Of a stretch of 64,000 bases of DNA, positions 18,872 through 19,059 are shown in pieces (positions within the stretch are counted from its first letter, which is position 1; every line of letters starts with the position of its first letter). A program made the position numbers and the translations under genes. This DNA is from Escherichia coli (GTDB lineage Bacteria > Pseudomonadota > Gammaproteobacteria > Enterobacterales > Enterobacteriaceae). The notes beneath the pieces are model-generated. The model did no database searches. It was not told where the DNA came from and worked only from the letters and a program-made list of their open reading frames with translations. Where the stretch lies: assembly GCF_003334815.1 (NCBI RefSeq), contig NZ_QOWO01000003.1; one strand, 5' to 3'.

Positions 18872-18947
18872 GCGGGAATAGCTCAGTTGGTAGAGCACGA
18901 CCTTGCCAAGGTCGGGGTCGCGAGTTCGAGTCTCGTTTCCCGCTCCA
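18872..18947 (+). tRNA. glyV: tRNA-Gly (anticodon GCC)
   Basis: 76-nt cloverleaf GCGGGAATAGCTCAGTTGGTAGAGC...TCCA with anticodon loop CUUGCCAA. Confidence 0.95.
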
Positions 18948-18983
18948 AAATTTGAAAAGTGCTGCAAAGCACAGACCACCCAA

Positions 18984-19059
18984 GCGGGAATAGCTCAGTT
19001 GGTAGAGCACGACCTTGCCAAGGTCGGGGTCGCGAGTTCGAGTCTCGTTTCCCGCTCCA
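18984..19059 (+). tRNA. glyX: tRNA-Gly (anticodon GCC), identical second copy
   Basis: Exact 76-nt repeat of the upstream tRNA, 36-nt spacer. Confidence 0.95.

What the first reader, a model, noticed from the sequence alone, without database searches (positions are those of the whole stretch)
18872..19059. Only two tandem tRNA-Gly(GCC) genes where K-12 carries three
Two identical 76-nt tRNA-Gly(GCC) genes are separated by 36 nt; no third copy follows. K-12 is recalled to have three tandem copies (glyV, glyX, glyY) here. This would be a copy-number change by unequal recombination between identical repeats and would alter tRNA-Gly gene dosage.
Basis: partly seen in the sequence, partly recalled or inferred. 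Interest (0 to 1): 0.35.

Follow-up and report, generated by a model that had tools for sequence, protein, structure and literature searches.

The report
Two-copy glycine tRNA gene array
This E. coli window carries two rather than the usual three tandem copies of the tRNA-Gly(GCC) gene next to orn; this is a known kind of one-repeat-unit loss seen in about 3% of complete E. coli assemblies, and it could equally be an assembly error, so it is ordinary.

Summary
Two identical 76-nt tRNA-Gly(GCC) genes lie at 18872-18947 and 18984-19059, 36 nt apart, between orn and the datA/yjeV/queG region. K-12 MG1655 has three copies here (glyV, glyX, glyY). The window's spacer is identical to K-12's glyV-glyX spacer. 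Exactly one 111-bp unit (the glyX-glyY spacer plus one tRNA) is missing, and the junction lies somewhere in a 93-nt perfectly repeated tract. Both flanks are identical to K-12. The three nearest relatives found with an independent 25 kb of the window all have the K-12-type three-copy array, so the two-copy state is derived and recent. It is not special. Among 5,426 complete E. coli genomes about 95% have the canonical array. About 150 end in the window-type spacer, 97 show the mirror-image arrangement and 15 have one copy. These are scattered over unrelated lineages, including laboratory derivatives. They also cluster by sequencing project, and one apparent clone gives two or three copies in different assemblies, so assembly error is a serious rival that cannot be tested without reads. 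Either way this is a known kind of copy-number variation. Interest is low.

The parts
18116..18661 (+). orn (oligoribonuclease) CDS, the upstream neighbour of the array
   Evidence: Coordinates transferred from the K-12 annotation (offset +17811). The stop codon TAA at 18659-18661 is seen. The same gene order is annotated in every genome inspected.
18787..18814 (+). Promoter-like element of the gly tRNA operon: TTGCAG, 16 nt, TATAAT, preceded by an A/T-rich tract and followed by the G+C-rich GCGCCTCCC
   Evidence: Read directly from the sequence. The 211 nt upstream of the first tRNA are identical to K-12. A PglyV-X-Y promoter is drawn in the datA review (PMC10380432). The consensus scan missed it because the first hexamer matches only 3 of 6 positions. 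The promoter assignment is inferred, not shown.
18872..18947 (+). tRNA-Gly(GCC) copy 1, equivalent to glyV
   Evidence: ARAGORN. Rfam tRNA at 69.1 bits. Identical to K-12 glyV/X/Y. Folds as a cloverleaf at -32.2 kcal/mol.
18948..18983 (+). 36-nt spacer, identical to the K-12 glyV-glyX spacer ('sp1'), with a 5-bp hairpin
   Evidence: Hairpin at -7.2 kcal/mol.
18984..19059 (+). tRNA-Gly(GCC) copy 2, a glyX/glyY hybrid equivalent
   Evidence: ARAGORN. Rfam. Identical to copy 1.
18969..19061 (+). 93-nt tract (15 nt of spacer tail, the 76-nt tRNA and 2 nt) that is perfectly repeated in the K-12 glyX and glyY units. The 111-bp deletion junction lies somewhere inside it.
   Evidence: Extent of identity computed on K-12. 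Alignment of the window, K-12 and Sanji.
19071..19118 (+). Terminator-like hairpin followed by UUUUUGUUG, the likely end of the tRNA operon. It overlaps the first DnaA-box-like site of datA.
   Evidence: RNA fold at -14.3 kcal/mol, z = -2.3. Sequence identical to K-12. Function is inferred.

Best explanation
The window carries a shortened but otherwise intact version of the E. coli glyVXY tRNA-Gly(GCC) operon at its normal place (orn | array | datA/yjeV | queG). An ancestor with the canonical three-gene array (tRNA, 36-nt spacer, tRNA, 35-nt spacer, tRNA) lost one 111-bp unit. The loss came from homologous exchange or replication slippage between the second and third units, anywhere within their 93 nt of perfect identity. 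That left tRNA, the 36-nt spacer, then tRNA. Promoter, terminator and flanks are untouched, so the operon should still be transcribed and processed normally. It would yield two instead of three tRNAs per transcript, which lowers the genomic dosage of this isoacceptor from four genes (with glyW) to three. Shown: the structure, the identity of what is missing, the three-copy state of close relatives, and recurrence of the same and the mirror-image loss in other E. coli. Inferred: that the loss happened in the cell rather than in the assembler, the molecular pathway, and any effect on the tRNA pool or on fitness.
For: There are two identical tRNA genes and the single spacer equals K-12 sp1. The missing 111 bp is the distinctive part of sp2 plus one tRNA, and the junction lies in a 93-nt identical tract. 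The flanks are identical to K-12: 211 nt upstream and 900 nt downstream. The nearest relatives by an independent 25 kb of the window (B-1109, VR50, N18-04097) all have the 36/35 three-copy array. An unbiased sample showed three copies in 59 of 59 genomes, so three is the ancestral state. The same loss occurs in unrelated backgrounds: O157:H7 Xuzhou21, ATCC 25922, KO11FL (its parent W has three) and 23CRST014. The mirror-image loss that keeps sp2 also occurs, including in BE311, CEA106S, EC359 and CY34, which are 99.98% identical to the window. Strain 2013C-3277 shows the same two-copy array in two separately deposited assemblies. O111:H8-like EHEC genomes listed from several submitters give the same two-copy signature; strain 7-54 11A was inspected and has two copies with the ERIC insertion. 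So real, heritable two-copy alleles very likely exist. From my own knowledge, tandem repeats of about 100 bp delete readily in E. coli by RecA-dependent and RecA-independent routes (work of S. Lovett and colleagues). Across species the array ranges from 2 to 7 copies.
Against: No reads are available, so the copy number in the source organism is unverified. No genome in the collection is identical to the window, so nothing corroborates this particular strain. Non-canonical arrays cluster strongly by project. At least 14 of the 47 exact window-type matches come from one Swiss wastewater series (AVS), and 6 of the 15 single-copy arrays come from the TUM series. Two different K-12 strains from one laboratory both show one copy. 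An apparent single clone of about 5.285 Mb gives two copies in AVS0226 and three copies with two sp1 spacers in AVS0753. These patterns are easier to explain by assembly than by biology.
Confidence: 0.55

Rival explanations
1. Assembly artefact. The organism has the canonical three-copy array, and the assembler or graph-bridging step dropped one unit. In a de Bruijn graph with k below about 90, the tRNA is a single repeat node carrying two short loops (sp1 and sp2) that differ at only three positions. Merging the loops as a bubble and misjudging loop multiplicity would give tRNA-sp1-tRNA, tRNA-sp1-tRNA-sp1-tRNA, the sp2 equivalents, or a single copy.
For: All of the predicted products exist in 'complete' public genomes: sp1 only, sp2 only, sp1-sp1, sp2-sp2 and single copy. 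They cluster by sequencing project (AVS, TUM, GF). Genomes that look like one clone disagree: AVS0753 has three copies and AVS0226 has two. K-12 derivatives deviate from the reference state: J53 is sp1-sp1, and MC1061 and OV2 are single copy. The window's closest relatives have three copies.
Against: Independent deposits of the same strain agree (2013C-3277). Several O111-like EHEC genomes listed from different submitters give the same two-copy signature; one was inspected and has two copies. A 111-bp unit is far shorter than long reads and is resolvable with k of 127. The graph mechanism is my inference, and no assembly methods were available (one search found no paper describing the AVS assemblies).
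Confidence: 0.38
2. Mixed population. The sequenced culture contains both two-copy and three-copy cells because the array contracts and expands at high rate, and the consensus happened to report two.
For: The array shows 1, 2 or 3 copies among near-identical genomes and laboratory derivatives. From my own knowledge, tandem repeats of this size are unstable in E. coli.
Against: Expected rates of about 1e-6 to 1e-4 per generation (own knowledge) would leave variants as a small minority in a culture grown from a single colony. About 95% of genomes keep the canonical array with two distinct spacers, which argues against rapid switching.
Confidence: 0.05
3. Two copies is the ancestral state of this lineage, and K-12 and its relatives gained a third copy by duplication.
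For: Some other Enterobacteriaceae show only one tandem junction, meaning two copies, for example Citrobacter werkmanii and C. youngae.
Against: The two spacers of the three-copy array are distinct and are kept across E. coli lineages, whereas a recent duplication would give two identical spacers. Of 5,426 genomes, 5,266 have the sp2-type spacer. The unbiased sample showed three copies in 59 of 59. The window's nearest relatives have the 36/35 array.
Confidence: 0.02

Closest known systems
E. coli K-12 glyVXY operon (tRNA-Gly3, anticodon GCC) between orn and datA/queG
   Same: Identical tRNA sequence, first spacer, promoter region, downstream terminator-like hairpin and datA region, and the same neighbours orn, yjeV and queG.
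   Different: Two genes instead of three. The 35-nt glyX-glyY spacer and one tRNA (111 bp) are absent.
Strain-to-strain tRNA gene copy-number variation in E. coli (McDonald et al. 2015, BMC Evol Biol, PMC4539685)
   Same: That paper reports that many tRNA genes vary by plus or minus one copy between strains, and it names the gly tandem array as a product of within-genome duplication.
   Different: The paper describes the array as three or four copies 'in all E. coli'. Here two-copy and one-copy arrays are documented in public complete genomes.
Deletion between short tandem direct repeats in E. coli (about 100-bp repeat assays; RecA-dependent crossing-over and RecA-independent slippage or sister-strand exchange). 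Recalled from my own knowledge and not retrieved here.
   Same: Loss of exactly one repeat unit with the junction inside perfect homology of about 90 nt.
   Different: No experiment was done on this locus. The pathway and rate are inferred.
Experimental change of tRNA gene dosage: Raval et al. 2023 eLife (PMC9981150) and tRNA gene duplications in Pseudomonas fluorescens SBW25 (PMC7661048, PMC10954465)
   Same: These show that tRNA gene copy number is evolvable. They also show that loss of redundant copies, including a glyVXY deletion, is costly in rich medium and often beneficial in poor medium.
   Different: Those deletions removed the whole operon, and the duplications were large. Here a single 111-bp unit is involved and no phenotype is known.

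Membership tests
E. coli glyVXY tRNA-Gly(GCC) operon | Genes fold as canonical tRNAs with anticodon GCC and are identical to K-12 glyV/X/Y | tested here: met
   ARAGORN, Rfam at 69.1 bits, exact identity, cloverleaf fold.
E. coli glyVXY tRNA-Gly(GCC) operon | Position between orn and yjeV/datA/queG | tested here: met
   Flanks identical to K-12. Annotated relatives show the same order.
E. coli glyVXY tRNA-Gly(GCC) operon | Three tandem copies with two distinct spacers (36 and 35 nt) | tested here: not met
   There are two copies and only the 36-nt spacer. This is a shortened allele of the operon, not a different locus.
E. coli glyVXY tRNA-Gly(GCC) operon | Promoter and terminator regions conserved | tested here: met
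   211 nt upstream and 900 nt downstream are identical to K-12. Hairpin followed by a U-run. Activity was not tested.
Homology-mediated deletion of one unit of a tandem repeat (unequal crossing-over or slippage) | The missing segment equals exactly one repeat period | tested here: met
   The 111 bp equals the 35-nt spacer plus the 76-nt tRNA.
Homology-mediated deletion of one unit of a tandem repeat (unequal crossing-over or slippage) | The junction lies within perfect homology, with no foreign or filler bases | tested here: met
   93-nt identical tract. The window sequence is colinear with K-12 on both sides.
Homology-mediated deletion of one unit of a tandem repeat (unequal crossing-over or slippage) | Close relatives carry the longer, ancestral array | tested here: met
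   B-1109, VR50 and N18-04097 have the 36/35 three-copy array.
Homology-mediated deletion of one unit of a tandem repeat (unequal crossing-over or slippage) | The shortened array is present in the DNA of the organism (reads or PCR) | not testable with these tools
   No reads or strain are available.
Assembly collapse of a short tandem repeat | Excess read depth over the array, or reads carrying the missing spacer | not testable with these tools
   No reads are available.
Assembly collapse of a short tandem repeat | The same kind of discrepancy clusters by project or pipeline, and differs between assemblies of one clone | tested here: inconclusive
   This is met for the public collection: AVS, TUM and GF series, and AVS0753 versus AVS0226. 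The window's own source and pipeline are unknown, and concordant cases also exist.

The most novel reading that the evidence does not exclude
The gly array could be a fast, reversible dosage locus whose copy number (1, 2 or 3) is tuned by selection to nutrient richness. Alternatively, its length and transcription could modulate the adjacent datA locus, which inactivates DnaA, so that array contraction would couple translation capacity to control of replication initiation. The evidence does not exclude this. The array sits directly upstream of the datA DnaA boxes. All contraction and homogenisation products exist in public genomes. Loss of tRNA redundancy is beneficial in poor media.
Probability: 0.04. 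Interest if true: 0.4.

Novelty: already known. Interest (0 to 1): 0.1.

Why it matters
If real, the strain has one fewer gene for the major glycine tRNA (three instead of four). From published deletion work, this might slightly slow growth in rich medium or help in poor medium. It is one more example of how tandem tRNA arrays contract. The practical lesson is technical. This 300-bp array is reported inconsistently in public 'complete' E. coli genomes, so differences in tRNA gene counts between assemblies at this locus should not be read as biology without support from reads.

Tried and rejected
1. The 'tRNA-Gly (x2)/(x3)' annotation column of the first BLAST could not be used to count copies. 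It followed strand and piece-joining: MG1655_insertion showed x2 there but has three copies (H290).
2. Simple counting with the two spacers as queries is confounded by lineage-specific spacer variants, by cross-matching and by the ERIC insertion. I therefore used it only for bounds.
3. I suspected that GF43 had its spacers in swapped order as a signature of a graph artefact. Its first spacer is a distinct 35-nt variant in a divergent lineage, so this is probably native and is not evidence of an artefact.
4. I tried to find the source genome. No complete E. coli genome is identical to the window; the best matches differ by about 5 mismatches per 25 kb.
5. A search for a paper describing the AVS assemblies found nothing useful.
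6. The consensus promoter scan found no promoter. The TTGCAG/TATAAT element was identified by eye and through its identity to K-12.
7. An ancestral two-copy state was rejected.
8. Rosetta2(DE3) was dropped as a parent/derivative example because its array has a different upstream neighbour.

Full report
OBSERVATION. ARAGORN finds only two tRNA genes in the 64-kb window. Both are tRNA-Gly(GCC), at 18872-18947 and 18984-19059 on the + strand, and Rfam's tRNA model matches both at 69.1 bits. They are identical to each other and 36 nt apart.

LOCUS AND REFERENCE STATE. The 1.4 kb around the genes matches every one of 5,426 complete E. coli genomes, at the orn / tRNA-Gly / hypothetical (yjeV) / queG locus. 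K-12 MG1655 (NC_000913.3) has three genes here, glyV, glyX and glyY, all identical to the window's genes. Its spacers are 36 nt (sp1: AAATTTGAAAAGTGCTGCAAAGCACAGACCACCCAA) and 35 nt (sp2: AAATTTGAAAGTGCTGTAAGGCACAGACCACCCAA).

WHAT IS MISSING. The window's single spacer is identical to sp1. Relative to K-12 the window lacks 111 bp, namely the distinctive part of sp2 plus one tRNA. In K-12 the glyX and glyY units share 93 nt of perfect identity: 15 nt of spacer tail, the 76-nt tRNA and 2 nt. The glyV and glyX units share 86 nt. The window is what an exchange or slippage anywhere within the 93-nt tract (window 18969-19061) would leave. The 211 nt upstream, which include a TTGCAG-16-TATAAT promoter-like element at 18787-18814, are identical to K-12. 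So are the 900 nt downstream. A hairpin followed by a U-run at 19071-19118 is a plausible operon terminator. The operon is otherwise intact.

DIRECTION OF CHANGE. The window is not K-12. Region 39000-63999 carries a TRAP-transporter / CoA-transferase cluster that is not among K-12 genes as I recall them, and it matches phylogroup-A-like wild strains. The three best matches to that independent 25 kb are B-1109, VR50 and N18-04097. All three carry the K-12-type array with 36- and 35-nt spacers. A flank-only query containing no tRNA sequence, listed at even steps down the ranking, gave three annotated tRNA-Gly genes in 59 of 59 informative genomes. About three quarters had a span of 899 bp and about one quarter a span of 1,020 bp. 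Three copies with two distinct spacers is therefore the ancestral state, and the window's state is a recent loss or an error.

HOW COMMON. The sp2-type spacer is found in 5,266 of 5,426 genomes.
- A 144-nt query made of sp1, the tRNA and the downstream flank matches at 99% or better in 150 records. Of the 60 best, 42 have the signature of a two-copy array (three places in the genome) and 17 that of a three-copy array.
- I validated this proxy by inspection. LH10-b-1, Xuzhou21, ATCC 25922, 23CRST014, AVS0226 and KO11FL have two copies. A J53 derivative, AVS0969 and AVS0753 have three copies with sp1 twice.
- The mirror query (upstream flank, tRNA, sp2) matches at 99% or better in 97 records, and 26 of the 60 listed have the two-copy signature. 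Strain 2013C-3277 has tRNA-sp2-tRNA, and 2014C-4135 has sp2 twice.
- Fifteen genomes have a single copy; MC1061 was inspected.
- Some lineages have native spacer variants, for example GF43, so these counts are approximate.
Overall about 95% of genomes are canonical, about 3% have two copies and 0.3% have one copy. Two-copy arrays occur in O157:H7, O111:H8, B2 strains, E. coli W derivatives and phylogroup A. Within the window's own tight complex (99.98% identity) both kinds of loss occur: the sp1 type in 23CRST014, and the sp2 type in BE311, CEA106S, EC359 and CY34.

REAL OR ARTEFACT. Evidence for real alleles comes first. Two separately deposited assemblies of 2013C-3277 agree. In one search a run of O111-like EHEC genomes listed under different strain series all give the two-copy signature; one of them, O111:H8 7-54 11A, was inspected and has two copies with the ERIC-bearing spacer.

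There is also evidence for artefacts.
- At least 14 of the 47 exact window-type matches belong to one Swiss wastewater series (AVS).
- Six of the 15 single-copy arrays belong to the TUM series.
- MC1061 and OV2, two K-12 strains from one laboratory, are both single-copy.
- AVS0753 and AVS0226 appear to be one clone, judged from their near-identical chromosome length, locus coordinate and queG allele. Yet they have three copies (sp1-sp1) and two copies respectively.
My inference is that short-k assembly graphs treat the tRNA as a repeat node with two nearly identical loops. Merging the loops or miscounting them would yield exactly the observed set of products. I could not test this, and I found no description of the pipelines. 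No genome in the collection is identical to the window, and no reads are available. I therefore rate a real in-cell deletion at about 0.55 and assembly collapse at about 0.38.

MECHANISM AND CONSEQUENCE. If the deletion is real, the loss is a homology-mediated deletion of one unit of a tandem repeat. From my own knowledge, repeats of about 100 bp delete in E. coli by both RecA-dependent and RecA-independent routes. The sequence cannot distinguish these.

K-12 has four GCC genes: glyV, glyX, glyY and glyW in the glyW-cysT-leuZ unit. Every genome in the collection has at least one further match outside the array (lowest count of two places, seen in the single-copy genomes). The dosage change is therefore from four genes to three. 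Raval et al. 2023 (PMC9981150) found that loss of redundant tRNA genes, including a glyVXY deletion, lowers growth and elongation rate in rich medium and is often beneficial in poor media. The effect of losing a single copy was not measured there or here.

COMPARISON WITH WHAT IS KNOWN. McDonald et al. 2015 (PMC4539685) already report plus or minus one copy variation for many tRNA genes among E. coli strains, and they cite this tandem array as a product of within-genome duplication. Tandem tRNA-Gly(GCC) arrays of 2 to 7 copies occur across Gamma- and Betaproteobacteria. The finding is a shortened allele of a well-known operon, produced by a well-known kind of event or error.

VERDICT. The finding is already known in kind, and interest is low (0.1).

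Noticed in passing
window 19078-19327: Four DnaA-box-like sites lie directly downstream of the tRNA array: ATATCCACA at 19078, a perfect TTATCCACA at 19145, TTATTCACA at 19307 and TCATCCACA at 19319 on the minus strand. This is the datA locus, which promotes DnaA-ATP hydrolysis and lies between glyVXY and queG (PMC10380432). It is identical to K-12 here. The 111-bp loss moves the gly promoter closer to it.
   Followed up: partly
L003 1185-1305 (strain Sanji); L006 and L007 spacers; absent from the window (would follow 18983): About a quarter of E. coli genomes carry a 121-bp insertion right after the first spacer. It matches the ERIC core (16/19 and 18/20 to the ERIC1R-rc and ERIC2 primer sequences recalled from memory) and folds as a long hairpin (-41 kcal/mol). 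Two-copy arrays that keep this insertion also exist (XDL, O111:H8 7-54 11A).
   Followed up: partly
L015 (AVS0753) versus L016 (AVS0226); L004 (MC1061); L005 (J53 derivative); Public 'complete' genomes report this array inconsistently. An apparent single clone has two or three copies, K-12 derivatives have one copy or two sp1 spacers, and non-canonical arrays cluster in a few sequencing projects. This suggests pipeline-dependent errors at short tandem tRNA arrays.
   Followed up: partly
window about 53069-62852: A gene cluster lies between rplI and ytfB: TRAP transporter, FAD-dependent oxidoreductase, acyl-CoA:acetate/3-ketoacid CoA transferase, enoyl-CoA hydratase, sugar-phosphate isomerase, 3-ketoacyl-ACP reductase and a TetR regulator. 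It is not among K-12 genes as I recall them and was not checked against K-12 here. The CoA-transferase gene (58012-59553, minus strand) is intact in the window but is a pseudogene in the close relatives BE311 and 23CRST014. Relatives also carry different IS1 insertions nearby.
   Followed up: partly
L142 (Rosetta2-DE3, NZ_CP083274.1): In this BL21 derivative assembly the two-copy gly array is preceded by an SDR oxidoreductase gene instead of orn. This indicates a rearrangement or misassembly with a breakpoint at the array.
   Followed up: no
window 18959-18972, and the K-12 glyX-glyY spacer (L001 1249-1283): Both spacers keep a 5-bp hairpin (GUGCU/AGCAC in sp1, GUGCU/GGCAC in sp2). One of the three differences turns a U-A pair into U-G, and another lies in the loop. 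The hairpin is possibly a processing signal in the precursor.
   Followed up: no
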